A stretch of 64,000 nucleotides of DNA from contig JALHNQ010000010.1 in NCBI GenBank assembly GCA_022843405.1, positions 8,957 to 72,956 on the forward strand. Direction: 5' to 3'. Under the pieces are notes generated by a model. The model ran no database searches. It was not told the DNA's origin and saw only the letters and a list, made by a program, of their open reading frames with translations. Source of the DNA: Methylocystis sp. (GTDB lineage: Bacteria > Pseudomonadota > Alphaproteobacteria > Rhizobiales > Beijerinckiaceae). Below are positions 30,558 to 46,200 of this stretch, piece by piece. A program made the translations under genes and the position numbers. The first letter of the stretch is position 1. Every line of letters begins with the position of its first letter.

Positions 30558-31604
30558 CTAGACAGTCCGATCGAGATAATGGATTTCGGAAACCTCGCGA
30601 AGACGCGCCGCCGCCGCTTCCGGCGTGATGTCGCGCTGGGGTTCGCCGAGCATTTCGAACCCCACCATGAATTTGCGCACGCTCGCCGATCGCAAGAGCG
30701 GCGGATAGAAATGCGCATGAAAATGCCAGCCGGCGTGGGGCGCGCCGTCGGTGGGACGCTGGTGAAACCCCATCGAATAGGGAAAATCGGTCTCAAACAG
30801 ATTGTCGTAGCGAATGGTCAGGCGACGAAGGATGTCGGCGAACGCGCTGGCCTCCTCGGCGGCAAGCTCGTCAAAAGCGCCGATATGCCGTGTCGGCAGC
30901 ACCATGGTTTCGAACGGCCAGATCGCCCAGAACGGAACCAGCGCAACGAAATGATCGTTGCGGCAAACGATCCGCTCGGCGCGCCTGAGTTCGAGCGCCA
31001 AATAGTCGCACAGCAGACAGGAGCCGTTCCGTTCCAGATAGGCGCTTTGCCGTATCGATTCCTTGACGGCTTCATTGGGAATGCTGTGCGTCGCCCAAAT
31101 CTGGCAATGCGGATGCGGATTGCTCGCGCCCATCGCCGCGCCGCGATTTTCGAAAATCTGAACGTAATTGATCATATCGAGGGCGCCGAGACGCATGGTT
31201 TCCTCGCGCCACGCCTCGATGACAGGATCAATCTCCGCAACGCTCATGCGCGACAAGGTCAGATCGTGGCGCTCTGAAAAGCACAGCACGCGGCATCGGC
31301 CGGGTTCGCTTAGCGCGACAAGCAGTCCGTCATGAACGACATTCTGCGCTGACGCTTGAGACGTGAGCGCGGCGAAGTCGTTGTCGAAGGCGAAAACGCC
31401 CTTATAGGGCTGATTCCGTTCGCCATTGGCCCGTTCATTGCCGGGACAAAGATAGCAGGTCGGATCGTATCGGGGTCGATCCGCGTGGCGCACTTTCTCG
31501 ACCTGTCCTTGCCAGGGCCGGCTCGTGCGATGCGGCGACACCAGAACCCACTCGCCGGTGAGCTGATTGAGCCGGCGATGCGAGGCGCTATCGAGCAGCG
31601 ACAT
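30558..31604 (-). CDS. galT: Galactose-1-phosphate uridylyltransferase
   Basis: [43 protein letters not shown] and [11 protein letters not shown]. Confidence 0.97.
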
Positions 31605-32775
31605 GCGCCGCTCCCATCAGACCGGCCGGGCCCGCGCCGGGACCGGGGACGCAGGTAAGGATCGGCGGGCTCACGCCCATCGCGGTTCGATATCTCTCCG
31701 CCATTGTCTGCGCGAATGCTTCGGTGCGCGTTCCGTCGACGAGATTGATCGTGCAGCCGCCAAAACCGCCGCCCATCATCCGCGCGCCATAGACTCCCGG
31801 AACGCCGCGCGCGATTTCGACCATCAGGTCGAGTTCGGCGCAGCTCACTTGATAGTCGTCGCGCAGGCTGTCATGCGAAAGATTCATCAGACGGCCGCAT
31901 TCCTCGAGGTCTCCCGCATCGAGCGCCGCGGCGGCGCGCAGCGTTCGATCGATCTCGCCAACGACATGGCGCGCGCGGCGAAACACAAGCTCGGACATCG
32001 AATCGGCGTAGCGCATCAATTGATCGAAGGTCACGTCACGCAACGCCGATATGCTGGCGATCCGACTCGACAGCGCCGCGACCGCGCGCTCGCAGTCCGT
32101 GCGACGCGCGTTATATTCATCGGCTGCGAGCCGGTGGCGCACCATGGTGTCGCAAAGGACAAGACGCGCTTTCGGATCGATCGAAACTTTCCGCGCGGTC
32201 AGACTGCGGCAGTCAAGCAGTAGCGCGCTCCCTGTGACGGCGCAGCAGGATATATATTGGTCCATAATGCCGCAGCGCACGCCGACGAATTGATTCTCGG
32301 CGCGCTGGCAAATCTTGGCGAGTTCGACTCTGTCGATCTTAGCGCCGGAGATCGACAGGAGGGCAAAGCCCGCCGAGACTTCGAACGCCGCTGAGGCCGA
32401 GAGTCCGGCGCCGATCGGGAGATTGCCGTTAAAGACGAGATCGGCGCCGCTCAGCCTGTAGCCGGCCTGCTCAAGAAAAATCGCGACGCCACGGATATAG
32501 TCGCTCCAGTCGCCTCGCGGCCGCGCCGCCGGATCGTCGAGATCGAATTCGACGATCTCGTCCATGATCAGCGAGCGCAGGCGCAGGCGGCGGTCGGAGC
32601 GCGGGGCGATCGCGGCCCAGATTGAAAGGTCGAGCGCCGCGGGCATGACGAAGCCGTCATTATAGTCGGTATGTTCGCCAATCAGGTTGATGCGGCCAGG
32701 CGCCCGAAACAGGCGCGGCGCGCGCTGGAAGCTCTGGCGGAAGGCGGCGATCAGATCGCGCTCGATCGATTCCAT
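31588..32775 (-). CDS. galK: Galactokinase
   Basis: [34 protein letters not shown] and [12 protein letters not shown]. Confidence 0.96.
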
Positions 32776-32858
32776 TCCACCACAGTCCCGTTGTCATCAA
32801 ACCGTCAAAGCGACGCCGCATCGAACGCGCGACAAGGAAATCAAATGTTCGTCTGCGC

Positions 32859-34823
32859 ATGACACGTCAACGCCTGGGCGTTTGCTACTATCCCGAACAT
32901 TGGCCAAAGTCACGCTGGCGCGACGACGCGGCCATGATGAAGGAGATTGGTCTTTCCTTCGTGCGTATCGGCGAATTCGCCTGGTCGCGGCTGGAGCCCT
33001 GCGACGGCGTCTATGATTTCGCCTGGCTCGGCCAAGCGATCGATGCGCTCGATCGCGCCGGCCTCAAAATCGTGCTGGGAACGCCCACCGCGACGCCGCC
33101 GAAATGGCTTGTCGACAAGATGCCGGATATGGCCGCGCTCGACGCCAATGGGCGGCCGCGCAAATTCGGTTCGCGCCGGCATTATTGTTTCAGCCATGAA
33201 GGCTATGCTCAGGAATGCGACCGCATCGTCGAGCGTTTGGCGGAAAGTTTCGGCGCGCATCCCGCCATCGCCGCGTGGCAGACCGACAATGAATATGGCT
33301 GCCACGACACCGTGCTGAGCTATTCGCCGGCGGCGCTGCGAGCGTTTCGCCGCTGGTGCGAGACGAAATATCGCCGCATCGAAACGCTGAACCAGGCCTG
33401 GGGCAATGTGTTCTGGTCGATGGAACTTCGTAGCTTCGATGAGATCGAACTTCCGAATATGACCGTCACCGAAGCCAATCCATCGCATCTGATGGATTTC
33501 CAGCGTTTCTCGTCGGATCAGGTCATCGCCTTCAATCGACGCCAGATTCAGATCATCAGACGCCATGCGCCGAGCGCGACGATCCTTCACAACTTCATGG
33601 GCTCATTCGTCGACTTTGATCATTATGCGCTCGGCGACGATCTCGATGTCGCCGCCTGGGACAGCTACCCGCTCGGCTTTCTCGAACGCTCGTCGCATGA
33701 CGACGCCTTCAAGCTGCGCTACATGCGGGTCGGCGATCCCGACTTTCAGGCCTTTCATCACGATCTCTATCGCGCCTGCGGCCGCGGTAGATGGCAGGTG
33801 ATGGAACAGCAGCCGGGGCCGGTGAATTGGGCGCCGTGGAATCCCGCGCCCGCCGAAGGCGCGGTGCGCCTCTGGACCTTCGAGGCCTTCGCCGCGGGGG
33901 CCGAGGTCGTGAGCTATTTTCGCTGGCGCCAGGCGCCCTTCGCGCAGGAACAAATGCACGAAGCGCTGTTGCTGCCCAACGCCATGCCAAACGAGGGCTA
34001 CGACGCCGTCGCGCGCATTTCGCAGGAACTCGCCATGCTTGACGCGCGGGTCGAAACGGCGCGCGCGCCTGTCGCGCTGATCTTCGACTATGAGAGCGCC
34101 TGGGCGTGGCGCATCGAACCGCAAGGCCAGGACTTCGCCTATTTCGACCTCATCCTGTCAATTTACCGAGGTCTGCGGCGCGCCGGTCTTTCCGTCGACG
34201 TCATTGCGCCGACCGCCGCGGCCGTCGCCGCGCGCCGGCTGATCGTCGCGCCCGCGCTGTTTGCGCCATCTCTAGAATTTGCGGAGGCGCTGGCGGAAAG
34301 CGGCGCGACACTCCTGCTCGGCCCCCGCGCTGGATCGAAGACCGCCGACTTCCAGATTCCGGCCGATCTGCCGCCGGGAGCGCTGCGACGCCTCATCGAC
34401 ATTCGCGTCAGACGGGTCGAGAGCCTTCGTCCCGGCGCATCGATTAAGATATCCGGCGGGGGCGCCTTCGTGCGGTGGCGCGAATTTTTGCTGCTCGGAG
34501 AGAGCGTTCGGCGCGAACTCGCATCGGACGACGACGAGACGGCGCTCGCGCGATGCGGCAACGTCTTCTATCTCTCAGGCTGGCCCGATGAAAAACTGCT
34601 GGCGAGCGTCCTGCGTCGGGTTTTTCGCGCTGCTGAAATAGCGACGCTCGATCTCGCCGAAAATATCCGCATCCGCGACAATGGCGCGATGCGCTACATT
34701 TTCAACTATGGCGCCGAGGCGACGGATGTCTCGGCGCTCATCGGCGAAGAAACGCTGTTGCTCGGCGAGCCGATTCTGGAACCTTGCGGCGTCGCCGCCT
34801 TCAGACGCGCGACCGACCGCTGA
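32859..34823 (+). CDS. GH42 beta-galactosidase
   Basis: LGVCYYPEHW, RIGEFAWSRLEP, WQTDNEYG (acid/base Glu), VMEQQPG (nucleophile Glu) and YFRWR. Confidence 0.95.
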   Translation: MTRQRLGVCYYPEHWPKSRWRDDAAMMKEIGLSFVRIGEFAWSRLEPCDGVYDFAWLGQAIDALDRAGLKIVLGTPTATPPKWLVDKMPDMAALDANGRPRKFGSRRHYCFSHEGYAQECDRIVERLAESFGAHPAIAAWQTDNEYGCHDTVLSYSPAALRAFRRWCETKYRRIETLNQAWGNVFWSMELRSFDEIELPNMTVTEANPSHLMDFQRFSSDQVIAFNRRQIQIIRRHAPSATILHNFMGSFVDFDHYALGDDLDVAAWDSYPLGFLERSSHDDAFKLRYMRVGDPDFQAFHHDLYRACGRGRWQVMEQQPGPVNWAPWNPAPAEGAVRLWTFEAFAAGAEVVSYFRWRQAPFAQEQMHEALLLPNAMPNEGYDAVARISQELAMLDARVETARAPVALIFDYESAWAWRIEPQGQDFAYFDLILSIYRGLRRAGLSVDVIAPTAAAVAARRLIVAPALFAPSLEFAEALAESGATLLLGPRAGSKTADFQIPADLPPGALRRLIDIRVRRVESLRPGASIKISGGGAFVRWREFLLLGESVRRELASDDDETALARCGNVFYLSGWPDEKLLASVLRRVFRAAEIATLDLAENIRIRDNGAMRYIFNYGAEATDVSALIGEETLLLGEPILEPCGVAAFRRATDR

Positions 34824-34850
34824 ATTCTTCGAAGTCTCTTAATGCGCGGC

Positions 34851-35864
34851 TCAGAACACAAGAAAGGACGCGACGACGAAATAGGTCAGAAGCGAAAAAG
34901 TGTCCTGCACCACGGTGGCGACCGGGCCTGAGCCGAGCGCGGCGTCAAAGCCAAGCCGCGCAAACAGCCAGGGCATCAGAAAGCCGAAGGCCGTGGCGAT
35001 GGTGCTCGCGACCGCCAACGAAATCCCGACGGTCGCGGCAAGCCCGACGCTCGAAAAAAAGAACCAGACGACCGGAAAGGCGAGAAAGCCAAGCATCGCG
35101 CCGAGCAGCGCGCCGGTGCCGAGTTCGCCCGCAAACAGCGGCAGCAGGGCGGAATCGGTCAGGGAGAGCCCGCGAACGACCACGACTTCAGATTGCGTGC
35201 CAACCGAATCAGCAAGATAGATGATCGCCGGGATAAAGAAGGCGACCGCGATATGCGCGCTGAGCGCGGACTCAAAGCGCGACATCATCGCAGTCGCCGC
35301 GGCGCTACCCGCCATGCCGACCAGCAACCAGGGCAATCGATAGAGCGCGCGACGATGCGGCGCGGCCGTCAGGGCGTCTTTTGCGGCCTCTGACTTGCCG
35401 AGGATGCCCGCCATATGATGCAGATCCTCGAGATGCTCGTCGCGCAAGATCGTCATCAGCGCGCGCGCCGGCACGGCGCCGAGAAACCTGCCTTCCGCAT
35501 CACAGACGGCCAATATTGACAGACCTGCATGAATCGCGACGCTGGCCGCAGCTTCGCGATCCGTGTCAATGGAAACGCTATAGGCCTCGGCCGTTCGTGC
35601 GATGTCATGCAGCTGGGTCGTCTCCGGCGCGCCAAGCAGATCGCGTATGGCGACGACGCCGGTGAGACGACCATCCTCGGCAAGCGCGAAAACATGCGAG
35701 GCGTCGTCGAAGCGTCGCCCGATCAATCGCGCCCGCGTCTCGCCGGCGCTCTCCTGCCAGCCGGCGATGGGGACCGACGTTACAAGATAGCGTCCGACGG
35801 TCTGGCCGCTCATCTCCGCTGGAGGCAGGCGGTCTGGCGTCGGGATACGGGACATTGCGGTCAT
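34851..35864 (-). CDS. MgtE-family divalent cation transporter (CBS pair plus MgtE TM domain, no N-domain)
   Basis: CBS region, RLPWLLVG, FFIPAIIYLADSVGTQS and SGPVATVVQD (metal-binding Asp). Confidence 0.88.
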   Translation of the reverse strand: MTAMSRIPTPDRLPPAEMSGQTVGRYLVTSVPIAGWQESAGETRARLIGRRFDDASHVFALAEDGRLTGVVAIRDLLGAPETTQLHDIARTAEAYSVSIDTDREAAASVAIHAGLSILAVCDAEGRFLGAVPARALMTILRDEHLEDLHHMAGILGKSEAAKDALTAAPHRRALYRLPWLLVGMAGSAAATAMMSRFESALSAHIAVAFFIPAIIYLADSVGTQSEVVVVRGLSLTDSALLPLFAGELGTGALLGAMLGFLAFPVVWFFFSSVGLAATVGISLAVASTIATAFGFLMPWLFARLGFDAALGSGPVATVVQDTFSLLTYFVVASFLVF

Positions 35865-36087
35865 GGCGTCTCATGATGCTCTTGAGAGTCGAGCGGCGTC
35901 CCGGCAGATTTAGGCGTCGTGCAGCCGCCGCTCATAGGAACGCGCTATGTTACAGTTATGTGACGGCGTCCTCACGCTCTTTTCGCGATTTGCGTCGATT
36001 GCTGCATGATAGGATGTCTTGATAGAATTCTTGGCCGTCGCCGCTTCGCCCCGACGGCGCAAAGCGGATCGGACCGGAGTCGAAGCG

Positions 36088-36435
36088 ATGAAACCCTTTG
36101 GATTTGCATTGGGCGTTCTGACAGGGGCCGCTGCGGTTTTGCTGCTCACCCGTCAGGAAACGCGGCGCGTGCGTCCGGTCGCCAAAGCGGCGCTGAAGGC
36201 GGCGATGATGGCCTATCATGAAGCGCGCGTGCAAGGCGCCGAACTCGCCGAAGCCGCCGAGGATCTCTTTGCCGAAGCGAAGACCGAGGCGGCCGCCGAT
36301 ATTTTCGCCGCGGCGATGGCCGCCGCTCAGGCGAAAGCGAAGCACGAAGCAAAGTCCGACGCGGCCTCTAAATCCGAGACCGGCGCGGCGACGGCCGAAG
36401 CCTCGGCGTCGCGCGCCGCGGGCGAGAGCGCATAA
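36088..36435 (+). CDS. DUF5132-like protein
   Basis: Hydrophobic N-terminus, then RPVAKAALKAAM...AELAEAAEDLFAEAKTE and an Ala-rich tail. Confidence 0.7.
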   Translation: MKPFGFALGVLTGAAAVLLLTRQETRRVRPVAKAALKAAMMAYHEARVQGAELAEAAEDLFAEAKTEAAADIFAAAMAAAQAKAKHEAKSDAASKSETGAATAEASASRAAGESA

Positions 36436-36879
36436 ATGCCCCAAATATCTCCGCCCTTGGCGCAGGTCGCCCACGCCATGCCGGGCCGCGCGCGACTGCG
36501 AATCGCCGACCGTCGCGGCGACGACGCTTACTTCGCTTCGGTCGCCAAGGCCCTTTCGGCGATCGCCGGCGTTCGCGCCGTCGAGGTGGCGCCGATGACG
36601 GGCAGCGTTCTCATTCAGCACAGCGGTCCTTTGGCGCGCATCGGCGTCGCCGCGCAGGAGGCGCAGCTTTTTGTCGTCGGCGAAGCGCCTGTGGCGCCGC
36701 GTGAGGCGCCGCAAGTCTCCATCGATCCGAAAATCGTCGCAGCGTTGGCGCTGTTCGCTGCGGCGCTCTGGCAAATGTCAAGAGAGCGCTTCTTGCCGCC
36801 GGCGGTCACTTTGCTTTGGTACGCCAGCCGGCTCGGCGGCCTATGGTCGCTCGACGGCGATGCCGATAATAGCGAGTAG
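36436..36879 (+). CDS. HMA2-like domain protein with a C-terminal membrane segment
   Basis: AHAMPGRARLRI...GVRAVEVAPMTGSVLI, then hydrophobic IVAALALFAAALWQ. Confidence 0.75.
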   Translation: MPQISPPLAQVAHAMPGRARLRIADRRGDDAYFASVAKALSAIAGVRAVEVAPMTGSVLIQHSGPLARIGVAAQEAQLFVVGEAPVAPREAPQVSIDPKIVAALALFAAALWQMSRERFLPPAVTLLWYASRLGGLWSLDGDADNSE

Positions 36880-36881
36880 GC

Positions 36882-38063
36882 CTAGCTCTTTAGCGCCTCA
36901 GCGACGTCGATCGCTTCCCACGGGAGATTGAGATCGGCGCGGCCGAAATGTCCATAGGTCGCGAGCGGCAGATAAAAGCCCTTCGCGCCGGCTGTTTGCG
37001 GGGCCGTGCGCAAGCCAAAGCGGCGGACGATCGCAGCCGGACGGAAGTCAAGAAGCTCTGCGAGCCTTCTGGCGAGCTTGTCGTCGGCGAGACGGCCGGA
37101 GCCGAAGGTCTCGACCGAGAGACTGAGCGGTTCCGCCTGCCCCGCCGCGTAAGCCAAATGAACCTCGCAGCGCTCGGCGAGGCCCGCCGCGACGATGTTT
37201 TTGGCCGCATGCCGAGCGGCGTAAGCGCCGGCGCGTTCGATGCGCGAAGGATCCTTGCCTGAAAGCGCCGAGCCGCTCTGGCGCGCAATCTCGCCATAGG
37301 TGTCGATGCCGTTCTTGCGCCCGGTCAGGCCCGCGTGACGCGCCGGCCCGCCGATGTCGAACGGCTCCCCGGCGTTGACATGAACGCTGGTCCGAGCGTC
37401 GGGCGCCATCTCGCCGACCGATAGCGCATCGAGCGCGATCGCGCGCAATCGTTCGAACCTGTCGCCATCCAGCGCCGCGCCGTCAAAGGCGACCGTGAGC
37501 GACACGCCGTGAATGCGCGTCGGGCGACCGCCACAAAATTCGACCGACACTTGCGTCTTGGCGTCGGGCGACAGTGACGCAAATCCGTCGCGGCGCGCGG
37601 CGTCAAGCGCGCGCGCGATCCTATGCGCGAGAACGATCGGCGCCGGCATGAATTCGGGCGTATCGCGGCAGGCGTAGCCGAAAACATTGGCTTGCTCATG
37701 CGCGACGCGCCTGCCGATCGCCTCGTCATCGGCGAGGGCCGCGAGCGGCGGCTCGCGCGCGTCGAGCGGCAATTCGACGAAGCTCGTGAGAATCGAGCAA
37801 TTGCGCGCATCAAAGCTCCCGGCGGCATAGCCGGCGTCTTGCATCACCATGCGCGCGAGCGCCGGCAAATCGACGAGCGCATCGGCGGCGTAGCGCGCGG
37901 CGAGAAAGACAACGCCCGTCGCCAGGGCGCACTCCACCGTCGCGCGCGCGCGCTCGTCTTCGCGCAGCAATGCGTCAATGGCCGCGTCGCTGATCTGATC
38001 GCAGAGCTTGTCGGGATGCCCCGGCGTCACCGACTCCGACGTGAAGATCATGTCAGGAGACAT
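36882..38063 (-). CDS. metK: Divergent methionine adenosyltransferase (MetK) paralogue
   Basis: FTSESVTPGHPDKLCDQISD, DAKTQV, GLTGRK, DTYG, SGKD and ATYGHFGR. Start MSPDM at 38063 overlaps the ATPase stop. Confidence 0.85.
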   Translation of the reverse strand: MSPDMIFTSESVTPGHPDKLCDQISDAAIDALLREDERARATVECALATGVVFLAARYAADALVDLPALARMVMQDAGYAAGSFDARNCSILTSFVELPLDAREPPLAALADDEAIGRRVAHEQANVFGYACRDTPEFMPAPIVLAHRIARALDAARRDGFASLSPDAKTQVSVEFCGGRPTRIHGVSLTVAFDGAALDGDRFERLRAIALDALSVGEMAPDARTSVHVNAGEPFDIGGPARHAGLTGRKNGIDTYGEIARQSGSALSGKDPSRIERAGAYAARHAAKNIVAAGLAERCEVHLAYAAGQAEPLSLSVETFGSGRLADDKLARRLAELLDFRPAAIVRRFGLRTAPQTAGAKGFYLPLATYGHFGRADLNLPWEAIDVAEALKS

Positions 38064-41000
38064 GGCTTTCTCCATTAGCGCGCGGCGGCGATTCCTCGCG
38101 ATCCGCAATTCTGCCGACGACATCGTTGGCGAGCGAACTGCCCAAAGCGATTGCGCCGATTCGCAAGAGATCGCCGGGGCCAAGCGGCGAGAGGCCGAGA
38201 AGGCGCCGGGACAATGGAAAGAGCTGCACGCCAAGCTGCAACAGCAGGGTGGCGCCGACGCCGCCGTAAAGCATCGCATTCGGCGACCTGCCGAGCTCAA
38301 AGCTCAATCCCCGTCGCTCGGATCGGCAGGCGAGGCTATGGAGCAACTGGCCGCACGTAATGCCGTGAAAGGCGACGGTGCTGGCGCGCGCCCCGCCGGC
38401 GGCGCCGCCGAGACTGAAATAGCCCAAGAGCGCGGCGACGCCCATCACCGAGCCTTCTCGAAGAATCCGCCGGAAGTCGGAAGCGGCGAGAATCGGCGCT
38501 TTCGGATCATGGGGCGGCCTGTCGAGCACATCGGGCTCCGGCGGCTCGATTCCAAGCGCAATCGCCGGCAGCGCGTCGGTCGCGAGATTGAGCCAAAGCA
38601 ACTGCATCGGCGTCAGCGGCTCACCGCCGACCAGCGCGGCGCCGAACATGGCAATGGTCTCTGACGCGTTGGTCGAGACGAGATAACGAAGCACCTTGCG
38701 GATATTCGCGTAAGTGGCGCGGCCGAGCCTGATCGCCTCGACAATGCCGTTCATGTCGTCCGTCGCGAGCACGATGTCGGCGACCTGACGGGCGACGTCG
38801 GCGCCTTCTCCGCCCATCGCGATGCCGACATTCGCGGCCCGCAAGGCGGGCCCGTCGTTGACGCCGTCGCCGGTCATCGCGACAATATGGCCATGCCCTT
38901 GCAGCGCCTTGACGATGTTGAGTTTGTCGACGGGGCTGACGCGCGCGAACACATGCGGCTGTCGCGCCAGCGCTTCGAGAGTCTCTGGCTGCATTTTCGC
39001 CATCTGGCCGGCTTCGAGCACGCGCAGTTCGCCGCCGTCATTAAGATCAAGCCGTCGCGCGATCGCGAAAGCGGTCGCGCTCTGATCGCCGGTGATCATG
39101 ACCGTGCGCACGCCGGCGCGATGCAGCTGTTTGAGCGCCGGCGCGACGCTGGCCCGAATAGGATTCGCCATGCCGGCGAGGCCGAGCCAAGTTAGCTGTC
39201 GTTCGTCGCGGGGATCGCCGCCGGCTTCGCCTACTGCGACGCCGAGGACGCGCAGCGCGTCGCCGGCCATGCGCTCATTGGCCTTGAAAATGGCCGTGCG
39301 CACCGCATCGTCGAGCGGCGCGACGCCATTGGCGGTCCCGCGCGCGGCGCAGCGTGCGAGCACCTCGGCAGGATCGCCTTTGACACAAAGAATGCGCGCG
39401 CCGTCGGCCGCTTCGTGAAGCGTGCTCATGCGCTTGCGGCCTTCGCCGCGCGCCACGCTTGTCGCCAGAGGCGCGGAGCGGCGCAGCGCGATTGGATCGA
39501 CTCCCATCGCCACGCCCGCTTCGATCAGCGCGGTTTCCGTCGGCGTGCCGTCGATCTCCCAGCCTTTCGCCGCGGGCTTCACGACGGCTTCACTGCACAG
39601 CGTCGCCGCTTCGAACAGGCGCCGCGCAATGGCGATCGCATCGACAGTCGCATCGGCGCCGTCGCGCAGCAGATGTCCATCCTGCAGATCGAACGCACCG
39701 TCGTCGACGTGAACGCGGACGGTCGCCATGCGATTTTCAGTCAGCGTGCCGGTCTTATCAAGTCCGATCGTTTCGATCGCCCCGAGGGTCTCGACGGCGT
39801 CGATCTTGCGCACCAGCACCTTGCGCTTGCGCATGTCCTGCACGCCAAGAGCGAGCGTGGTGGTTGCGACTGCGGGCAGTCCTTCAGGAATTGCGGCCAC
39901 GGCAAGCGAAATCGCGCTGCGCAAAGTGGGAATGAGCCCATGGCCGCGCAAAAGGCCAAGAGCGAAGACGCTCACGCAAATCAGACCGTTGACGACGACG
40001 AGCTCGCGCTCGACGTCGCCCAGTTCGCGTTGGATTGGAGTCGGCGGCGGCCGCAGCGCGCCGAGCAATCGTTGCACGCGGCCGATCTCCGTCTGCGCCC
40101 CGATCGCGGTGACGATCGCCATGCCCGATCCGCCGGTCGCCGCCGTTCCGCGAAACACCATGTTGCGACGATCCGAAATTCCCGTTTCCAGCGACAAAAC
40201 CACATCCTTGTCTTTAGGCGCCGGTTGAGCCTCGCCGGTGAGCGGCGATTCATTCACAGTCAGATCGTCGCTGGCGATCAGGCGCGCGTCGGCCGCAACG
40301 AACGCGCCGCGTTCGATCAGCAAGAGGTCGCCCGGCGCGAGATCGCGCGAGTCGATCCTCAGGCGCGCGCCGTCTCGGATGACGGCGGCGTCCGACGGCT
40401 CCTCGCCGGCAAGGCCCAAAATCGCGCGATCCGCCTGGCGCTCGGTGGCCGTGGCGATGCCGGCGTTGACGAACACCACGGCGGCGATCATCACCGCATC
40501 GGCGATTCCGCCGGTCGCCAGCGACACCACCGCCGATGCGGCGAGCAAAGCGACAGGCAGGCTGGACATCTGCTCGGCGAAAATGCTCGCCGCCGAGCGC
40601 GGCTCCTCGCGGCGCAGCTCGTTGCGCCCCCATTTCTCCAATCTTGCGGCCGCTTCCTCTGTCGATAGCCCTCGAGCGACGTCCGTTTTCAATCGCGCCG
40701 CGAGCGTCGCGATCGTCTCGGCATGAGCGGCGCGTTCCGGAGTACGCGAATCGTCCGCGTTGCGCGCGGGCGCGTCGGCGATCGCCGCTTCAAGCGCCTG
40801 CATCAGCCGCGCGGTCGTCATCGGCGGCTGAAATTCGACGAGCGTCGAACCGGTCAATTCGCTTGCCCGCACCCGGCGCACGCCGGGAAGATGGCGAAGT
40901 CGCTCCTCGACGGCCCGCGCCAGCGGCGCGCGGCCGCGCAAGCTCATGTGGCGCATGCGCACGCGGCCGGCGCAAGCGTCGTGAACAAGCTCGGCGCTGG

Positions 41001-41085
41001 GTTGCGCGCGCGCCTCGACGCCGAAGCGACGCGAATTTATGGGAGCGATATCTGCATCCGTCTCGGCGAGGATCATCGAGCACAT
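38053..41085 (-). CDS. P2-type (Ca2+-like) cation-transporting P-type ATPase with an N-terminal HMA2-like domain
   Basis: TGEA, AIPEGL, DKTGTLT, KGDP, MITGD, GDGVNDGPAL, TM5 STNASE and TM6 WLNLATD. Confidence 0.95.
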   Translation of the reverse strand: MCSMILAETDADIAPINSRRFGVEARAQPSAELVHDACAGRVRMRHMSLRGRAPLARAVEERLRHLPGVRRVRASELTGSTLVEFQPPMTTARLMQALEAAIADAPARNADDSRTPERAAHAETIATLAARLKTDVARGLSTEEAAARLEKWGRNELRREEPRSAASIFAEQMSSLPVALLAASAVVSLATGGIADAVMIAAVVFVNAGIATATERQADRAILGLAGEEPSDAAVIRDGARLRIDSRDLAPGDLLLIERGAFVAADARLIASDDLTVNESPLTGEAQPAPKDKDVVLSLETGISDRRNMVFRGTAATGGSGMAIVTAIGAQTEIGRVQRLLGALRPPPTPIQRELGDVERELVVVNGLICVSVFALGLLRGHGLIPTLRSAISLAVAAIPEGLPAVATTTLALGVQDMRKRKVLVRKIDAVETLGAIETIGLDKTGTLTENRMATVRVHVDDGAFDLQDGHLLRDGADATVDAIAIARRLFEAATLCSEAVVKPAAKGWEIDGTPTETALIEAGVAMGVDPIALRRSAPLATSVARGEGRKRMSTLHEAADGARILCVKGDPAEVLARCAARGTANGVAPLDDAVRTAIFKANERMAGDALRVLGVAVGEAGGDPRDERQLTWLGLAGMANPIRASVAPALKQLHRAGVRTVMITGDQSATAFAIARRLDLNDGGELRVLEAGQMAKMQPETLEALARQPHVFARVSPVDKLNIVKALQGHGHIVAMTGDGVNDGPALRAANVGIAMGGEGADVARQVADIVLATDDMNGIVEAIRLGRATYANIRKVLRYLVSTNASETIAMFGAALVGGEPLTPMQLLWLNLATDALPAIALGIEPPEPDVLDRPPHDPKAPILAASDFRRILREGSVMGVAALLGYFSLGGAAGGARASTVAFHGITCGQLLHSLACRSERRGLSFELGRSPNAMLYGGVGATLLLQLGVQLFPLSRRLLGLSPLGPGDLLRIGAIALGSSLANDVVGRIADREESPPRANGESHVS

Positions 41086-41636
41086 TGTCTGACGCGCATC
41101 GAAGCCCGCATTTCACGACCGTTCGATGACATATATAAGTTGCGGCATCGCTTGACGCGAGAACCGCGCGGCGCGCCTCGCGATCTTTCAGCGTCACCAT
41201 AATAGCGTGAAGGGCAGGCGCAACCGGCGAGACCCCGTTTCATGTCCGAAAGAGGCGCGTCTAAAGCGCGCGCCGCCGCGTCGATCACGGCGCATGGCGC
41301 GGGATGCGCCGGATTTTCGCATTGCACATTGACGTCGCTCGCCGGAACCTTAACGATCCGCCGGGCGTTTCCCGGGGAACAGCGCGCTTGCCTATATCGC
41401 CACTCGCCAGGCAAGACGACATCCCATCATTTCTTGCGCCGCCGCTGTCGCCCGACAGCTTGAAGACAGCGGCGATCGTCAAGAAAATCAAGCAGACCCG
41501 TCTCGGCAATCCGCTCGAAAGCGCGTATTTTCCGCAGCCTCTTCCTCTATGGCCCCTAGAAGGTCGCGAAATTGTGAAACATGCCTAGAAGCGCTGAAAC
41601 GACGCCCATGCCGAAACATCCGACCGAATTTCCAAT

Positions 41637-43457
41637 ATGGCCGTGGCGGCGTCTCTGATGCGCGCCTTCTCGCGCGTTTCATTTGCCGCATGCATGGCGC
41701 TGGCGATGCGCGCCTGTTTGGACGCGCCGGCTTTGGCGCAGACGACGCTCTCCAACGGCGATTGGCGCGCGGAACAGGCAAAGCGTCTGAACGCGCTCGA
41801 CGCCTATATCAGCCGGAAGCCGATCGCCTACCGGTGGTTTGCGGATTTTCCGTTTAGCCGGACGGACGGCGCGCCCTTCATCATCCTGAAGCTCTTGCCG
41901 AAGCTCGCGCCGGAAGAATGGGGAAGCGCGAATAATTTTCTCGATGTCGCCGGCCTCTTCGTCGACGAGCGCGACCCAACCTATCCGATCGCGCGCGGCT
42001 TCGGTTGGACGGGCTTGGCGCGCGAGGATCCAAACGGCGGCGTCGATTACGCCGCGATGAGTTGCGGCGCGTGCCACATCGGCCGCGTGCGGCTCGACGA
42101 CGGCAGTCTTCGCTATCTCGACGGCGGCGTGAACGCGCAGTTCAACCTCATTCAATATCGCGTCAGAGTGATCAACACGATCAAGAAGATCACCGAAGGG
42201 GCCGCAACGCTTGAGGAAAAGGTCGAACGCGCGACGCAGGAGATTGTCTCGACGCTCGACAAAATCCATGCTCAAGACAAGAATTTCTTTTACAGGAACT
42301 ACACATTCGCCGGCCGCCGGTTCGACGCCGCCTATGAGGCGCGGCAGATCGAACTCTTCAAGCAGGACGCCGCCGCGATCGTCGGAAAATATCTTGCCCG
42401 CGCCGGACTCGAATTTTTCTCGCTGCTCGATCTCATCTCCAAGAACTACCGAGGCTTCGAGGAGCAAATGACGCAAGGCCTCGGCGGCATGGTCGATGCG
42501 GCCGGCGTCGGCGCGTCGATGGCCTATGTCGCCGCCGAAGCGCGCGGCGAAATTCCCGACCCGAAGACATATCTGCCGCCGACGCCAGGAATCGCCGATA
42601 TCATGGCGGTTTGGGAGCAGCGTAAGCGCCGGCCGCGCTGGTCTGCGGATCATACGCAGCTTGTCGACGGCGGCGCCCAATGGACCGGCGACATTCCGAT
42701 TCCGATCTTTAGTGGCCTCGCCGCGCAATTGACGCTGGAGTCCGGACCCGACGTCGACATTCGCATCGCCGCCTTCAGCGAAGACTTGCTGCGCGATCTG
42801 CCGGCGCCGGCCTATCCCTTTCCCGTCGATCTCACGCTCGCAAAGAAAGGCGCGGCGCTCTTTGAAGAGAATTGCGCCCCATGTCATCGGCCGCATAACG
42901 GCAAGGTCTATGATCTGGGCGCCGATCTCAGCCGGGCGCGCGCCGTCAGCGAAACGATCGCGAAAAACGTCCGCGACAGCTTCGCAAAGATTTGTCCGCC
43001 GACAAAAGTCATCGAGATGCCGCCCTCGGGCGATCGCATCGCGCCCTGCGCGAAATTCGACGGCGTGTCGCTCGAGAACCGCGCCGACCTCTCCATGGCC
43101 GATCCCAATAAGCGTGAAGGCTATAATGCGCTTCCGCTCGGCGGCGTCTGGGCGCAGGCGCCCTATCTGCACAATGGCTCAGTGCCGACGCTGTATCATC
43201 TTCTCGTTCCGCGCGAGCGCCCGGCGGTTTTCGTGAAAGGCCGGCTCGACTACGACAAGAAGCTCGTCGGCTTCTCCTGGGAGCCGGCGCAGACGCTCTC
43301 GCGCGAGGGCTATCGTTTCGACACGACCTCCTTTCTGGCGCTCTCCAACAAGGGGCACGACAAGGATGTGGTCGAGGACGGCAAGACGTTGAAGCTCGAC
43401 TGGTCGAACGACGTCGCCGGCGCCATGGCCATCGTCGAATATTTGAAGACGAAGTGA
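41637..43457 (+). CDS. Exported di-haem c-type cytochrome (RoxA/di-haem peroxidase-like)
   Basis: Signal peptide, two CxxCH motifs (CGACH, CAPCH) and PLGGVWAQAPYLHNGSVPTL. Confidence 0.8.
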   Translation: MAVAASLMRAFSRVSFAACMALAMRACLDAPALAQTTLSNGDWRAEQAKRLNALDAYISRKPIAYRWFADFPFSRTDGAPFIILKLLPKLAPEEWGSANNFLDVAGLFVDERDPTYPIARGFGWTGLAREDPNGGVDYAAMSCGACHIGRVRLDDGSLRYLDGGVNAQFNLIQYRVRVINTIKKITEGAATLEEKVERATQEIVSTLDKIHAQDKNFFYRNYTFAGRRFDAAYEARQIELFKQDAAAIVGKYLARAGLEFFSLLDLISKNYRGFEEQMTQGLGGMVDAAGVGASMAYVAAEARGEIPDPKTYLPPTPGIADIMAVWEQRKRRPRWSADHTQLVDGGAQWTGDIPIPIFSGLAAQLTLESGPDVDIRIAAFSEDLLRDLPAPAYPFPVDLTLAKKGAALFEENCAPCHRPHNGKVYDLGADLSRARAVSETIAKNVRDSFAKICPPTKVIEMPPSGDRIAPCAKFDGVSLENRADLSMADPNKREGYNALPLGGVWAQAPYLHNGSVPTLYHLLVPRERPAVFVKGRLDYDKKLVGFSWEPAQTLSREGYRFDTTSFLALSNKGHDKDVVEDGKTLKLDWSNDVAGAMAIVEYLKTK

Positions 43458-43940: not shown

Positions 43941-44738
43941 ATGACCCATCCGCTGGCGTCGCTGCGGAAAAGCCTGGCTTGCGCCCATCCGGCCGCAGCT
44001 TCCGAGACGATCGCGCTCGGCGCGCCCGCCCTCGATCGGCGGCTCGGCGGCGGGATTCTCCGCGCCGCGCTGCATGAGGCCTATGCCGGGACCGCCGCCG
44101 ACGCCCCGGCGGCGACGGGCTTCGCTTTGGCGCTCGCCAGACGCGCAATGGCGGGAAAGCAGAAGCCGCTGCTCTGGGTCCGGCAGGAGGCGCTGAGCAC
44201 CGAAGCGGGCGCGCCCTATCCGCCGGGCCTCGCCGACATCGACATCGACCCCGCCGCCGTCGCCTTCATTCGCGTGCGCGACGCCAAGGAGGCGCTGCAG
44301 GCGGGCGCGGAGGCCGGACGCTGCGCAACTGTGGGCGCGACGCTGATCGAACTCTTCGGCGCAGCGCGCGCCTATGACCTCACCGCGAGCCGTCGCCTCG
44401 CTCTGGCCGCCGCCGCCGCCGGCGCGCCGATCTTCATCGTCCGCGCAGGCGCCGCCCCCGCGCCAAGCGCCGCCGCAAGCCGCTGGCTTGTGCGGGCGCT
44501 CCCCTCCCGCCCGCGCGCGGCGAATGCGCCGGGGTCTGCGGCCTTTGCGATTTTTCTGCTGCGCCAGCGCGGCGGCGCGGCGGGGCATGCGTGGCGTGTG
44601 GAGTGGAACCGTGACCGTGGCGCCTTCAAGGACAGAACTTTCGACGCACCGTCGCTATCTCGCCCTGTGGCTTCCCTTTCTGTCGGCGGAGCGCCTGACG
44701 AAGTCGCGCCGCAGACAGCCGGACGCAAATTCGGATGA
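43941..44738 (+). CDS. imuA: ImuA (RecA-like, inactive) mutasome protein
   Basis: LDRRLGGGILRAALHE, LLWVRQ, SRRLALAA and LLRQRGG. First gene of the SOS-boxed cassette. Confidence 0.88.
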   Translation: MTHPLASLRKSLACAHPAAASETIALGAPALDRRLGGGILRAALHEAYAGTAADAPAATGFALALARRAMAGKQKPLLWVRQEALSTEAGAPYPPGLADIDIDPAAVAFIRVRDAKEALQAGAEAGRCATVGATLIELFGAARAYDLTASRRLALAAAAAGAPIFIVRAGAAPAPSAAASRWLVRALPSRPRAANAPGSAAFAIFLLRQRGGAAGHAWRVEWNRDRGAFKDRTFDAPSLSRPVASLSVGGAPDEVAPQTAGRKFG

Positions 44739-46200
44739 TTCGCCGCTCGTCCTCGTCAAAAAAGAGCGCAGCGCGTTGCGCATCGACGCGCTCGATCGAA
44801 AGGCGATCGCGCTCGGCTTGACGCCGGGCATGACGCTCGCCGACGCCAAAGCGCGCGCGCCCCATCTCGCCGTCGCGCAGGCCGACGCGGCGGCGGACGA
44901 GCGGCTGATGCTGCGGCTTGCCGCCTTTTGCGAACAGTTCACGCCGCTCGTGGCGCTCGATCCGCCTTGCGGCCTCATGCTCGACGCGACCGGCTGCGCG
45001 CATCTTTTCGGCGGCGACGCGGCGATGCGCGCTTACGTCTTACGAGCGATGGCGCGCCTCACTTTCTCGGGACGCGCCGCTGTCGCCGGAACGCCGGACG
45101 CCGCGCGCGCCCTGGCGCGTTTTGGCGAGACGGCCGTCGCGCCTCCGGGCGAAGAGGAAGTTTTTGCCCGGCCGCTCTCCATCGCCGCGCTCGAAGCGCC
45201 AAGAGAGACGAGCGTCGCGCTGACGCGCGCCGGCCTCACGACATTGGGCGATCTCGCCGATCGTTCTTCGGCCGCGCTGACGGCGCGTTTCGGCGATGAA
45301 ACGATGCGGCGGCTGACGCGCATTCTGGGACGCGAAGACGCGCGCATCACGCCCTTGCGGTCCCTGCCGGAATGCATGGTCGAGCGGCGCTTCGCCGAAC
45401 CTTTTCTCGATCTCTCCGCGATAGAAAACGTTCTGCGCCCATTGATCGTGGAAGCGACGGGCATTCTCGAAAAGCGCGGCGAAGGCGGCCGCGCGTTCGA
45501 AGCGCGCTTCTTTCGCACCGACGGCGCCGTCGCGTCCCTACGCTTCGAAACCGGCGCGCCCTCGCGCAATGTCGAGGCGCTGCTGCGGCTCTTTCGCCTG
45601 AAGGCCGACTCGCTCGCCGATCCGCTCGATCCGGGATATGGCTTCGACGTCATCCGCTTTTGCGTCCTCAACGCCGAAACTCTGGCGCAAAGCCAGATCG
45701 GCTTCGAACGGCAGGACGCGCAAGATGGCGATTTCGCCGATCTCGTCGATCGTCTCGCGGCGCGTTTCGGCCGCGAATGCGTGCTGCGCTTTGCGGCGCG
45801 TGACACGCATGATCCCATGCGCGCCGCCGCCTATGTCGACGCCGCCGCGTCTCCTTCTTCCCCGCCCAGTTCCTGGCCGAAGCCTGAGCCGGGCGAGCCG
45901 CCCTTGCGGCCGCTGTTTCTGTTCGATCCGCCGCAGCCCATCGAAACCATGGCGGAGACGCCGGACGGTCCGCCGATGCATTTCAAATGGCGCCGCGTGC
46001 GCCATTTGATCGCCCGCGCCGAAGGGCCGGAGCGCATCGCGCCGGAATGGTGGCGCAACGCCGCCGGCGCGCGCCCGCGAACACGCGACTATTACCGCCT
46101 CGAAGATCGCGACGGCCGTCGCTTCTGGGTGTTTCGCGAAGGGCTCTATGAAAGCGAAACCGCCGCGCCGCGCTGGTTCCTGCATGGGCTCTTCGCATGA
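44587..46200 (+). CDS. imuB: ImuB (Y-family polymerase-like, inactive)
   Basis: RRYLALWLP, GLTPGMTLADA, FTPLVALD, LDATGCAHLFGG and EGPERIAPEWW...RDYYRLED. Start approximate. Confidence 0.92.
   Translation: MRGVWSGTVTVAPSRTELSTHRRYLALWLPFLSAERLTKSRRRQPDANSDDSPLVLVKKERSALRIDALDRKAIALGLTPGMTLADAKARAPHLAVAQADAAADERLMLRLAAFCEQFTPLVALDPPCGLMLDATGCAHLFGGDAAMRAYVLRAMARLTFSGRAAVAGTPDAARALARFGETAVAPPGEEEVFARPLSIAALEAPRETSVALTRAGLTTLGDLADRSSAALTARFGDETMRRLTRILGREDARITPLRSLPECMVERRFAEPFLDLSAIENVLRPLIVEATGILEKRGEGGRAFEARFFRTDGAVASLRFETGAPSRNVEALLRLFRLKADSLADPLDPGYGFDVIRFCVLNAETLAQSQIGFERQDAQDGDFADLVDRLAARFGRECVLRFAARDTHDPMRAAAYVDAAASPSSPPSSWPKPEPGEPPLRPLFLFDPPQPIETMAETPDGPPMHFKWRRVRHLIARAEGPERIAPEWWRNAAGARPRTRDYYRLEDRDGRRFWVFREGLYESETAAPRWFLHGLFA

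What the first reader, a model, noticed from the sequence alone, without database searches (positions are those of the whole stretch)
36882..38063. MetK paralogue with substituted substrate-binding residues, coupled to a cation pump
Seen, against the E. coli MetK sequence as I recall it: GAGDQG becomes VAHEQA (D118E), GGPMGDCGLTGRK becomes GGPARHAGLTGRK (D238H), HGGGAFSGKD becomes QSGSALSGKD, and SKVDRS becomes SRIERA (K269R, D271E). GHPDK, DAK, GRK and SGKD, which handle phosphate and metal, are kept. The start overlaps the P-type ATPase stop by 11 bp. Established: D118, D238 and K269 contact the methionine/ribose moiety. Inference: a non-housekeeping enzyme with a different nucleophile or nucleotide, a stand-alone tripolyphosphatase, or an ATP/Mg/K-sensing partner of the pump.
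Basis: partly seen in the sequence, partly recalled or inferred. Interest (0 to 1): 0.68.

Follow-up and report, generated by a model that had tools for sequence, protein, structure and literature searches.

The report
Pump-linked MetK look-alike, not SAM synthetase
This Methylocystis gene has the fold of the enzyme that makes S-adenosylmethionine, but it belongs to a separate, unstudied family that has replaced the methionine pocket, kept the magnesium-triphosphate site and always sits directly behind one kind of calcium-type ion pump, so its database name is probably wrong and its real job, perhaps in phosphate-starvation cation or polyphosphate handling, is unknown.

Summary
Window 36882-38063 (-) encodes a 393-aa MetK-fold protein whose ATG overlaps the stop of a 1010-aa P2-type ATPase by 11 bp.

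All the quoted motif changes are present.

A canonical metK (468 bits against 310 on TIGR01034) lies on another contig, as it does in every other carrier genome checked.

The His238/Arg269 proteins form one clade found in several phyla:
- The metal and triphosphate residues are kept family-wide.
- The methionine ligands are replaced by basic residues.
- dN/dS is 0.13.

In every locus examined, about 30, the gene directly follows an orthologous ATPase with an N-terminal HMA_2/CoBaHMA domain, usually with a 4-bp overlap. DUF5132 and CoBaHMA-TM genes lie nearby. Distances in the two genes co-vary (Mantel r 0.80).

In Methylocystis both promoters carry conserved Pho-box-like repeats.

Best reading: this is not a SAM synthetase. 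It is a triphosphate-handling partner of the pump, and its substrate is unknown. I found no publication describing it.

The parts
36882..38063 (-). MetK-like CDS (393 aa, P0001). It belongs to the His238/Arg269 pump-linked clade. In P0001 numbering it keeps H16, D18, K19, E44, D167, K169, R249, K250, K270, D271 and R277. Changed residues are R57, H122, E123, A125, H243, Q262, S263, S265, R274, E276 and A307.
38053..38063 (-). 11-bp overlap between the ATPase stop codon and the MetK-like ATG, indicating translational coupling. The Shine-Dalgarno sequence GGAGAA is at 38068-38073.
   Evidence: the same overlap is seen in 11 other Methylocystis loci; 4-bp overlaps in other phyla
38053..41085 (-). 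P2-type (Ca2+-pump-like) P-type ATPase, 1010 aa, with an N-terminal HMA_2/CoBaHMA domain (residues 34-89).
41115..41132 (-). Pho-box-like direct repeat ATGTCAT-CGAA-CGGTCGT, 47 nt upstream of the ATPase ATG. The block TGTCATCGAACGGTCGTGAAA is conserved in other Methylocystis genomes whose flanking sequence differs.
36436..36879 (+). Small CoBaHMA (HMA_2) protein with a hydrophobic C-terminal part, 147 aa. It converges on the MetK-like gene, with the two stop codons 2 bp apart.
36019..36435 (+). DUF5132-like small membrane protein. The ORF runs from TTG 36019, and the likelier start is ATG 36088, just before the hydrophobic segment. Its stop abuts the CoBaHMA ATG.
   Evidence: weak Pfam hit, E 2.8e-4, below cut-off; DUF5132 recurs beside the module in L112, L115 and L117
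35949..35966 (-). Pho-box-like direct repeat CCGTCAC-ATAA-CTGTAAC in the divergent promoter region, about 85-100 nt upstream of the MgtE-like ATG.
34851..35864 (-). MgtE-like divalent-cation channel (CBS domain plus MgtE membrane domain, 337 aa). It flanks the module in all 12 Methylocystis loci.

Best explanation
The gene does not encode the cell's SAM synthetase. It belongs to an undescribed offshoot of the MetK family, the His238/Arg269 clade.

Shown by tool results:
- A canonical metK exists elsewhere in the genome.
- The protein keeps the MetK fold, probably the dimer salt bridge (E42-R244), and the residues that bind two Mg2+, K+ and the triphosphate chain and that cleave it.
- The acidic and amide ligands of methionine have been replaced by basic residues (Arg57, His243, Arg274).
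- The gene is made from the same mRNA as a CoBaHMA-headed, Ca2+-pump-like P2 ATPase, to which it is translationally coupled. It has co-diverged with that pump across phyla.
- The module also contains a CoBaHMA-TM protein and a DUF5132 protein. In Methylocystis it additionally has an MgtE-like channel.
- In Methylocystis both promoters carry conserved repeats that resemble the Pho boxes of this genome's pstS, PstS-like, phosphate-porin and phosphatase genes.

Inferred:
- The protein binds a Mg-triphosphate unit (PPPi, short polyphosphate or the triphosphate of ATP) and probably hydrolyses it.
- Its rebuilt basic pocket takes an anionic group where methionine used to sit.
- It works as a stoichiometric partner of the pump in divalent-cation handling when phosphate is scarce. 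One example would be releasing Pi from tri- or short polyphosphate while the pump expels the Ca2+ or Mg2+ that polyphosphate held.
For: Family membership and the second copy:
- All three MetK Pfam domains are present, and TIGR01034 scores 310.5 bits against a cut-off of 309.4.
- The AF2 model has pLDDT 85, and its best Foldseek hits are MATs at TM 0.85-0.89.
- The canonical metK scores 467.8 bits on contig C4.
- 16 of 36 Methylocystis genomes carry the paralogue, always alongside a canonical copy. Eight further carriers also have both.

Active site:
- The residue map shows H14, D16, K17, E42, R244, K245, K265, D266, D271 and R272 kept family-wide.
- D238H, K269R and E55R/H are fixed.
- The clade is monophyletic with support 0.93, and dN/dS is 0.13.

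Literature (PMC6850014):
- Glu70, Gln113 and Asp258 hold methionine.
- Human D258G and K289N lose SAM synthesis but keep phosphatase activity.
- Gating-loop mutations cut SAM formation more than 200-fold without affecting PPPi hydrolysis.

Linkage to the pump:
- The ATPase is immediately upstream on the same strand in 12 Methylocystis loci, 6 loci from other phyla or families, 5 other Alphaproteobacteria and 6 metagenome loci.
- Among 400 evenly drawn Alphaproteobacteria, all 5 orthologous ATPases have a MetK-like gene behind them. None of the 6 generic P2 ATPases checked does.
- The Mantel correlation of pairwise distances is r 0.80, p 2e-4.

Pho boxes.

PhoX and a Metallophos gene lie beside the module in L019 and L017.
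Against: - There are no biochemical data and no expression data.
- This subclade keeps D163, K165 and an aromatic residue at position 230, so ATP binding and adenosyl transfer to a different nucleophile remain possible.
- The pocket may simply be plugged by its own side chains. I could not inspect model coordinates.
- The Pho-box evidence is a consensus match confined to Methylocystis. The ATPase box is only a 6+5 of 14 match, and the same scan found nothing consistent beside the module in other genera or phyla.
- Other OmpR-type regulators bind similar repeats.
- Gene adjacency and coupling show shared function, not a physical complex.
- The protein still scores just above the curated MetK equivalog cut-off.
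Confidence: 0.6

Rival explanations
1. It is a new ATP-dependent adenosyltransferase. The enzyme still displaces triphosphate from C5' of ATP, but its nucleophile is an anionic molecule lacking an alpha-amino group, bound by Arg57, His243 and Arg274. The product is a non-SAM 5'-adenosyl compound used with the pump system.
For: This subclade keeps D163, K165, an aromatic residue at 230 (F or Y in 103 of 120 close homologues) and a full-length gating loop. The new pocket residues are nearly invariant (118-120 of 120), as expected for a specific ligand. The catalytic His14 is kept.
Against: Across the whole family K165 is kept in only 10 of 21 representatives. F230 is not conserved, the GAGDQG motif is relaxed, and the gating loop is deleted in about half of the members. 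The pump linkage is nevertheless universal. A function shared by the whole family therefore cannot depend on adenosine binding. No candidate nucleophile or downstream enzyme is conserved in the neighbourhood.
Confidence: 0.17
2. It is a non-catalytic regulatory subunit. The MetK fold serves as a sensor of ATP, Mg2+, K+ or polyphosphate that docks on the pump, or on its CoBaHMA head, and gates transport.
For: Translational coupling and co-divergence fit a stoichiometric complex. The MAT catalytic subunit is known to bind a regulatory protein partner, MATbeta (PMC6850014). CoBaHMA domains are proposed regulators with a basic patch.
Against: Pseudoenzymes usually lose catalytic residues. Here His14, both Mg2+ ligands, the K+ ligand and all triphosphate-binding basic residues are kept in 18-21 of 21 divergent representatives.
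Confidence: 0.15
3. It is a second, specialised SAM synthetase isozyme that supplies SAM locally or under stress.
For: Databases annotate it as methionine adenosyltransferase, and it scores 1 bit above the TIGR01034 cut-off. The fold and the ATP-side residues are intact.
Against: E55, Q98, D238 and K269 are 93-100% invariant in 94 canonical representatives and are all replaced here. Mutating D258 or K289 in human MAT abolishes SAM synthesis. No SAM riboswitch lies in 34000-42500. The gene is never the only metK. The strict link to a cation pump has no rationale for SAM supply.
Confidence: 0.05

Closest known systems
Methionine adenosyltransferase / SAM synthetase MetK (EC 2.5.1.6; TIGR01034; Pfam PF00438, PF02772, PF02773; E. 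coli 1FUG/1RG9, L. plantarum 7R3B)
   Same: It has the same three-domain fold (Foldseek TM 0.85-0.89) and 37-41% identity. It shares the GHPDK, GLTGRK and SGKD motifs, the Mg2+ ligands D16 and D271, the K+ ligand E42 and the E42-R244 interface pair.
   Different: The methionine ligands are replaced: E55R, Q98 lost, D238H and K269R. GAGDQG has become VAHEQA and GGGAF has become SGSAL. It is an accessory gene present in 16 of 36 Methylocystis genomes and about 1% of sampled Alphaproteobacteria. It is always a second copy and always lies behind a P2 ATPase.
MAT variants that keep only tripolyphosphatase activity (human MAT1A D258G and K289N; monomeric R264H/R265H; E. coli gating-loop mutants)
   Same: Changes at the same positions (E. 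coli D238 and K269, and the gating loop) abolish SAM synthesis but leave PPPi hydrolysis intact (PMC6850014).
   Different: Those are disease or laboratory mutants. Here the changes are fixed, conserved under purifying selection and shared by a clade spanning several phyla. The new residues are basic rather than simply absent.
ccyA (calcyanin) neighbourhood of Microcystis aeruginosa PCC 7806, candidate locus for intracellular amorphous CaCO3 (bioRxiv 10.1101/2024.07.07.602159)
   Same: DUF5132 proteins and CoBaHMA (HMA_2) proteins with a membrane hairpin sit beside a Ca2+ transporter and are co-expressed with it.
   Different: The transporter there is a CAX exchanger, not a P-type ATPase. The paper mentions no MetK-like gene ('adenosylmethionine' has 0 occurrences). 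I did not test whether this genome has a calcyanin.
P2A Ca2+-ATPases (Listeria LMCA1 6ZHF, SPCA1, SERCA)
   Same: The partner pump's best solved relatives are LMCA1 (454 bits), SPCA1 (405 bits) and SERCA (about 390 bits). It has the PEGL, STNASE and NLATD membrane motifs.
   Different: It carries an extra N-terminal CoBaHMA domain. It scores below every NCBIfam equivalog cut-off. It has an obligatory MetK-like gene downstream.
Ferrosome (fez) gene clusters
   Same: By analogy only: a P-type ATPase with small membrane proteins in a compact accessory cluster.
   Different: FezB is a P1B-6 ATPase (my own knowledge). This pump has Cation_ATPase_N and Cation_ATPase_C domains and is P2-type. The one review retrieved for ferrosomes held no usable text.

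Membership tests
MetK / methionine adenosyltransferase (functional SAM synthetase) | Three-domain MetK fold | tested here: met
   PF00438, PF02772 and PF02773 are all matched. The AF2 model has pLDDT 85 and pTM 0.87, and its Foldseek top hits are MATs at TM 0.85-0.89.
MetK / methionine adenosyltransferase (functional SAM synthetase) | Score above the curated equivalog cut-off of TIGR01034 | tested here: inconclusive
   The score is 310.5 bits against a cut-off of 309.4, whereas the genome's canonical metK scores 467.8. Other family members score 261-361 bits.
MetK / methionine adenosyltransferase (functional SAM synthetase) | Mg2+, K+ and triphosphate residues (H14, D16, K17, E42, K165, R244, K245, K265, D271) | tested here: met
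   All are present, with D271 conservatively changed to E.
MetK / methionine adenosyltransferase (functional SAM synthetase) | Methionine ligands E55, Q98 and D238 (human E70, Q113, D258), plus K269 | tested here: not met
   E55R, Q98 lost, D238H and K269R. The residue roles come from PMC6850014.
MetK / methionine adenosyltransferase (functional SAM synthetase) | Invariant GAGDQG and GGGAFSGKD loops | tested here: not met
   They read VAHEQA and SGSALSGKD here. Canonical representatives are 93-100% invariant at these positions.
MetK / methionine adenosyltransferase (functional SAM synthetase) | Catalyses ATP + L-methionine -> SAM + PPi + Pi | not testable with these tools
   This needs an enzyme assay or complementation.
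Pump-linked His238/Arg269 MetK-like clade (undescribed) | His at E. coli position 238, Arg at 269 and a basic residue at 55, with placement inside the clade | tested here: met
   All 32 signature-bearing sequences form one clade with support 0.93, and P0001 lies inside it.
Pump-linked His238/Arg269 MetK-like clade (undescribed) | Gene lies immediately downstream of, and overlaps or abuts, an orthologous P2 ATPase with an N-terminal HMA_2/CoBaHMA domain | tested here: met
   There is an 11-bp overlap here. The same arrangement is seen in all loci examined.
Pho regulon (PhoB-controlled genes) | Pho box (7-bp direct repeats 11 bp apart) in the promoter | tested here: inconclusive
   There is a 6+6 match at 35949-35966, with 0.002 expected by chance. 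It is one of 48 such hits genome-wide, which include pstS, a PstS-like protein, Porin_O_P and Exo_endo_phos. There is a 6+5 match at 41115-41132. Both are conserved in Methylocystis. No box was seen in other lineages. Binding and induction are untested.
Ferrosome fez cluster | P1B-6 type ATPase FezB | tested here: not met
   The pump has Cation_ATPase_N and Cation_ATPase_C domains and its nearest relatives are LMCA1, SPCA and SERCA.
Calcyanin (ccyA) iACC locus | Presence of a calcyanin gene with the (GlyZip)3 domain | not tested
   Only the shared DUF5132 and CoBaHMA neighbours were established.

The most novel reading that the evidence does not exclude
The MetK fold has been recruited as a phosphate-starvation-induced tripolyphosphatase or short-chain polyphosphatase, or conversely as an enzyme that releases PPPi from ATP. 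In this reading its built-in basic residues take the place of the activating SAM cation. The enzyme forms a stoichiometric complex with a CoBaHMA-gated Ca2+-type pump. Together with the DUF5132 and CoBaHMA membrane proteins, the pair would constitute an undescribed bacterial system. That system would either mobilise or build a Ca/Mg-(poly)phosphate store.
Probability: 0.2. Interest if true: 0.85.

Novelty: new variant of a known kind. Interest (0 to 1): 0.7.

Why it matters
MetK is one of the most conserved enzymes known, and it is usually treated as having a single function.

- **A natural experiment in enzyme repurposing.** This is a widespread family under purifying selection that keeps the triphosphate chemistry but discards methionine. 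It also gives a concrete handle on free tripolyphosphate or short-polyphosphate metabolism, which is poorly understood in bacteria.
- **A testable cofactor for an uncharacterised module.** The strict pairing with a CoBaHMA-headed Ca2+-type pump offers an enzymatic partner for a cation module whose small proteins also occur at the cyanobacterial intracellular-carbonate locus.
- **A practical annotation problem.** Most members score just above the TIGR01034 equivalog cut-off, so pipelines name them 'methionine adenosyltransferase'. This inflates apparent metK copy number and hides the family.

Tried and rejected
- **Riboswitch or other known RNA upstream.** An Rfam E-value scan of 34000-42500 gave only two chance-level hits.
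- **Literature.** Searches for MetK-like or MAT-like paralogues, for FUPA or P-type ATPase together with SAM synthetase, and for Pho regulon together with SAM synthetase and cation ATPase returned nothing relevant. The CoBaHMA paper (Proteins 2024) is not held. The ferrosome review held no usable text.
- **Ferrosome analogy.** Rejected as membership, because the pump is P2-type rather than P1B-6.
- **Genome-contig scan with the family alignment.** It was swamped by canonical metK genes. Only the top six loci were family members.
- **A first loose motif search for the ATPase operator.** It hit an ArsR/ArsC operon, which was a false lead.
- **Pho-box scan beside the module in other genera and phyla.** It gave no consistent hits, so the Pho link is claimed for Methylocystis only.
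- **Natural fusions of MetK-like proteins to pump or CoBaHMA domains.** None were found. Long MetK hits are intein-bearing or unrelated fusions of canonical MetK. P0134 only has an uncharacterised C-terminal tail.
- **Model coordinates.** They are not available to scripts, so the geometry and electrostatics of the pocket could not be measured.
Full report
**1. The observation**

The minus strand of 36882-38063 encodes a 393-aa protein (P0001). Its ATG is at 38063, preceded by GGAGAA. The upstream gene, 38053-41085 (-), encodes a 1010-aa P-type ATPase whose stop codon overlaps that ATG by 11 bp.

P0001 matches all three MetK Pfam domains. On the NCBIfam equivalog TIGR01034 it scores 310.5 bits against a cut-off of 309.4. 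Its best solved relatives are bacterial MATs at about 40% identity.

Aligned to E. coli MetK (taken from NC_000913; mature numbering), the residues sort as follows:
- Kept: H14, D16, K17, E42, D163, K165, R244, K245, S263, G264, K265, D266, R272.
- Changed: E55R, G117H, D118E, G120A, S186T, D238H, H257Q, G258S, G260S, K269R, D271E, I302A.
- Gln98 is lost. HMMER aligns a Leu at that position and MAFFT an Arg, and the loop contains no Gln in either alignment.

These are two of the three direct methionine ligands.

**2. It is a second copy**

The same genome has a canonical metK on contig C4 scoring 467.8 bits. Source names for close homologues place the organism in Methylocystis.

Of 36 other genomes of the genus, 16 carry the paralogue, and each of those also has a canonical copy. 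Eight further carriers from five more genera also have both: canonical at 465-506 bits and the paralogue at 261-361 bits.

In 400 evenly drawn Alphaproteobacteria only 4 besides this genome showed the paralogue at E <= 1e-85. A fifth, more divergent copy turned up behind an orthologous pump.

**3. It is a distinct, constrained family**

Among the best 150 cluster representatives from an exhaustive phmmer search, about 20 share His at position 238 and Arg at position 269. In a FastTree phylogeny with canonical MetKs, all 32 signature-bearing sequences form one clade (support 0.93) with nothing else inside it.

I compared 21 divergent family representatives with 94 canonical ones.
- Fifty positions that are invariant in canonical MetK stay invariant in the family. 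They include every metal and triphosphate residue: H14, D16, K17, E42, R244, K245, K265, D266, D271 and R272.
- Two positions switch cleanly: D238 to H (21 of 21) and K269 to R (20 of 21).
- E55 becomes Arg or His in 19 of 21.
- Other features are relaxed:
  - The gating loop is deleted in about half of the members.
  - The GAGDQG motif varies.
  - K165 is kept in only 10 of 21.
  - F230 is not conserved.
  - The GGG loop varies.

Among 120 close homologues, R55, H238 and R269 are present in 118-119. Twelve Methylocystis orthologues give a median pairwise dN/dS of 0.13. The AF2 model is confident (pLDDT 85, pTM 0.87). Only the triphosphate loop 247-269, which lies at the dimer interface in MATs, is uncertain. 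Foldseek returns MATs at TM 0.85-0.89.

**4. What the substitutions mean**

PMC6850014 gives the following for human MAT2A:
- The amino group of methionine bonds to Glu70 and Asp258, and its carboxylate bonds to Gln113. These are E. coli E55, D238 and Q98.
- Asp258 also holds the ribose O3'.
- The patient variants D258G and K289N lose SAM synthesis but keep phosphatase activity.
- Gating-loop mutations in the E. coli enzyme cut SAM formation more than 200-fold without touching PPPi hydrolysis.
- The R264-E57 salt bridge builds the dimer interface. Both residues are kept here, as R249 and E44.

From my own knowledge of Taylor and Markham (1999), D238N lowers kcat for SAM synthesis about a thousand-fold, and D16 and D271 are the Mg2+ ligands.

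The pocket that binds a zwitterionic amino acid in MetK has therefore gained roughly three to five positive charges, while the triphosphate-cleaving machinery is intact. SAM synthesis is very unlikely. Binding, and probably hydrolysis, of a Mg-triphosphate unit is likely.

**5. The link to the pump**

The ATPase has Cation_ATPase_N, E1-E2, HAD and Cation_ATPase_C domains, plus an N-terminal HMA_2 domain. It falls below every NCBIfam equivalog cut-off. Its nearest solved relatives are Listeria LMCA1 (454 bits), SPCA1 and SERCA.

HMA_2 is the CoBaHMA domain of Gaschignard et al. 2024, as described in bioRxiv 10.1101/2024.07.07.602159.

Converging on the MetK-like gene are a DUF5132-like gene (36019-36435) and a small CoBaHMA protein (36436-36879). 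Beyond them lies an MgtE-like channel (34851-35864).

An orthologous ATPase lies immediately upstream on the same strand in every family locus I could examine:
- 12 Methylocystis genomes, with the same 11-bp overlap.
- Thermodesulfobacteriota, Nitrospirae, Desulfovibrio, Binatia, Acidobacteriota and Acetobacteraceae contigs. Five of these six have 4-bp overlaps.
- Five other Alphaproteobacteria.
- Six metagenome contigs carrying the most divergent representatives.

HMA_2 and DUF5132 genes recur beside the pair.

The ATPase scores in 400 Alphaproteobacteria show a clear gap. Five orthologues score 677-780 bits with the CoBaHMA head aligned, and generic P2 pumps score 507 bits or less. All five orthologues have a MetK-like gene behind them, and none of the six generic pumps examined does.

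Pairwise distances of the two proteins across 13 loci correlate (Mantel r 0.80, p 2e-4), and the two diverge at similar rates. The two genes are thus inherited and expressed as a unit. A physical complex is plausible but not shown.

**6. Regulation**

The genome's pstS promoter carries TTGTCAC-AAGA-CTGTAAT-CTTT-TTGTCAC. I scanned for two [CT]TGTCA[TC]-like heptamers 11 bp apart with at least 6 of 7 matches each. This finds 48 sites in the whole genome. Among them are pstS (twice), a second PstS-type binding protein, a phosphate-selective porin and an Exo_endo_phos protein.

One of the 48 is CCGTCAC-ATAA-CTGTAAC at 35949-35966. It lies in the divergent promoter region between the MgtE-like and DUF5132 genes. 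Chance expectation for that 154-bp region is 0.002. The box recurs, at 11-12 of 14 matches, in 10 of 12 orthologous loci.

The ATPase-MetK-like operon has ATGTCAT-CGAA-CGGTCGT 47 nt before its ATG (a 6+5 match, with 0.07 expected per 550 bp). The block TGTCATCGAA[CT]GGTCG is kept (with GTGAAA after it in five) in six other Methylocystis genomes whose flanks differ. The first half-site persists in four more distant ones.

The same scan found nothing consistent beside the module in other lineages. The Pho link is therefore a supported lead for Methylocystis only. PhoX and a Metallophos gene sit beside the module in two other phyla.

**7. Mechanism**

Shown:
- The gene is not the housekeeping metK.
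- The methionine ligands are gone.
- The triphosphate and metal site is kept.
- The gene is obligately coupled to the pump.
- It is under purifying selection.

Inferred:
- The protein handles a Mg-triphosphate unit, with an anionic group in the former methionine site.
- It acts with the pump in divalent-cation handling, probably under phosphate starvation.

My preferred concrete version is a tripolyphosphatase or short-polyphosphatase that frees Pi while the pump removes the counter-cations. The built-in cations would substitute for the SAM that stimulates PPPi hydrolysis in MetK. This last point is my own speculation.

The rivals are an adenosyltransferase for an anionic nucleophile, a non-catalytic sensor subunit, and, least likely, a true SAM synthetase isozyme.

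**8. Novelty**

I found no paper describing this family or the pairing. Databases call the protein methionine adenosyltransferase.

Several earlier notes from this scan reached the same general reading in other genomes. They are not independent evidence. I re-derived each point here and added the Methylocystis distribution, the co-divergence test and the Pho-box test.

I rate it a new variant of a known kind: a known fold with a new, undetermined function and a new obligatory partner.

Noticed in passing
L018 2065-3324 (-) and L019 9639-10808 (+): ArsA/Get3-like ATPases (ArsA_ATPase plus the ArsA_HSP20 domain) sit beside the pump/MetK-like module in a Desulfovibrio contig and a Binatia contig. 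They could insert the tail-anchored CoBaHMA-TM and DUF5132 proteins.
   Followed up: no
L017 6012-6980 and 7270-7760; L019 399-2393: In a Nitrospirae contig a CorA Mg2+ channel and a Metallophos phosphoesterase follow the MetK-like gene. In Binatia a PhoX alkaline phosphatase lies upstream. Different lineages therefore add a Mg2+ channel (MgtE-like here, CorA there) and phosphatases to the same core.
   Followed up: partly
G000:C23 around 40137 (- strand): A beta-carbonic anhydrase (Pro_CA) has a 7+6 Pho-box-like repeat, CTGTCATATTGCTGTCGC, 66 nt upstream. This is curious given the link between CoBaHMA/DUF5132 genes and intracellular carbonate in cyanobacteria.
   Followed up: partly
Protein P0134 (metagenome representative), residues about 360-468: One family member carries a C-terminal tail of about 110 aa with a glycine-zipper-like hydrophobic segment (AIPVVGSLGLGSYAYF). 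Pfam finds nothing in the tail.
   Followed up: partly
TIGR01034 scores in G000, G003, G019, G022, G099, G225, G242, G370: Seven of eight further paralogues, and this one, score 313-361 bits (this one 310.5), just above the equivalog cut-off of 309.4. Annotation pipelines therefore name them methionine adenosyltransferase. The cut-off does not separate the two families.
   Followed up: yes
window 43941-49493 (+): Three consecutive ORFs of 265, 608 and 1098 aa look by eye like an imuA-imuB-dnaE2 error-prone polymerase cassette.
   Followed up: no
window 30558-34823: There is a galactose-use cluster. It comprises galT-like (30558-31604, -) and galK-like (31588-32775, -) ORFs, identified by motif by eye, and a GH42 beta-galactosidase (32859-34823, +; Pfam).
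   Followed up: partly
window 41637-43457 (+): A 606-aa secreted protein with RoxA-like and cytochrome c domains is divergently transcribed from the ATPase. It is not found beside the module in other lineages.
   Followed up: partly
window 35956-36774 (-): A 272-aa Arg-rich ORF lies antisense to the DUF5132 and CoBaHMA genes. It is almost certainly a high-GC artefact and not a gene.
   Followed up: no
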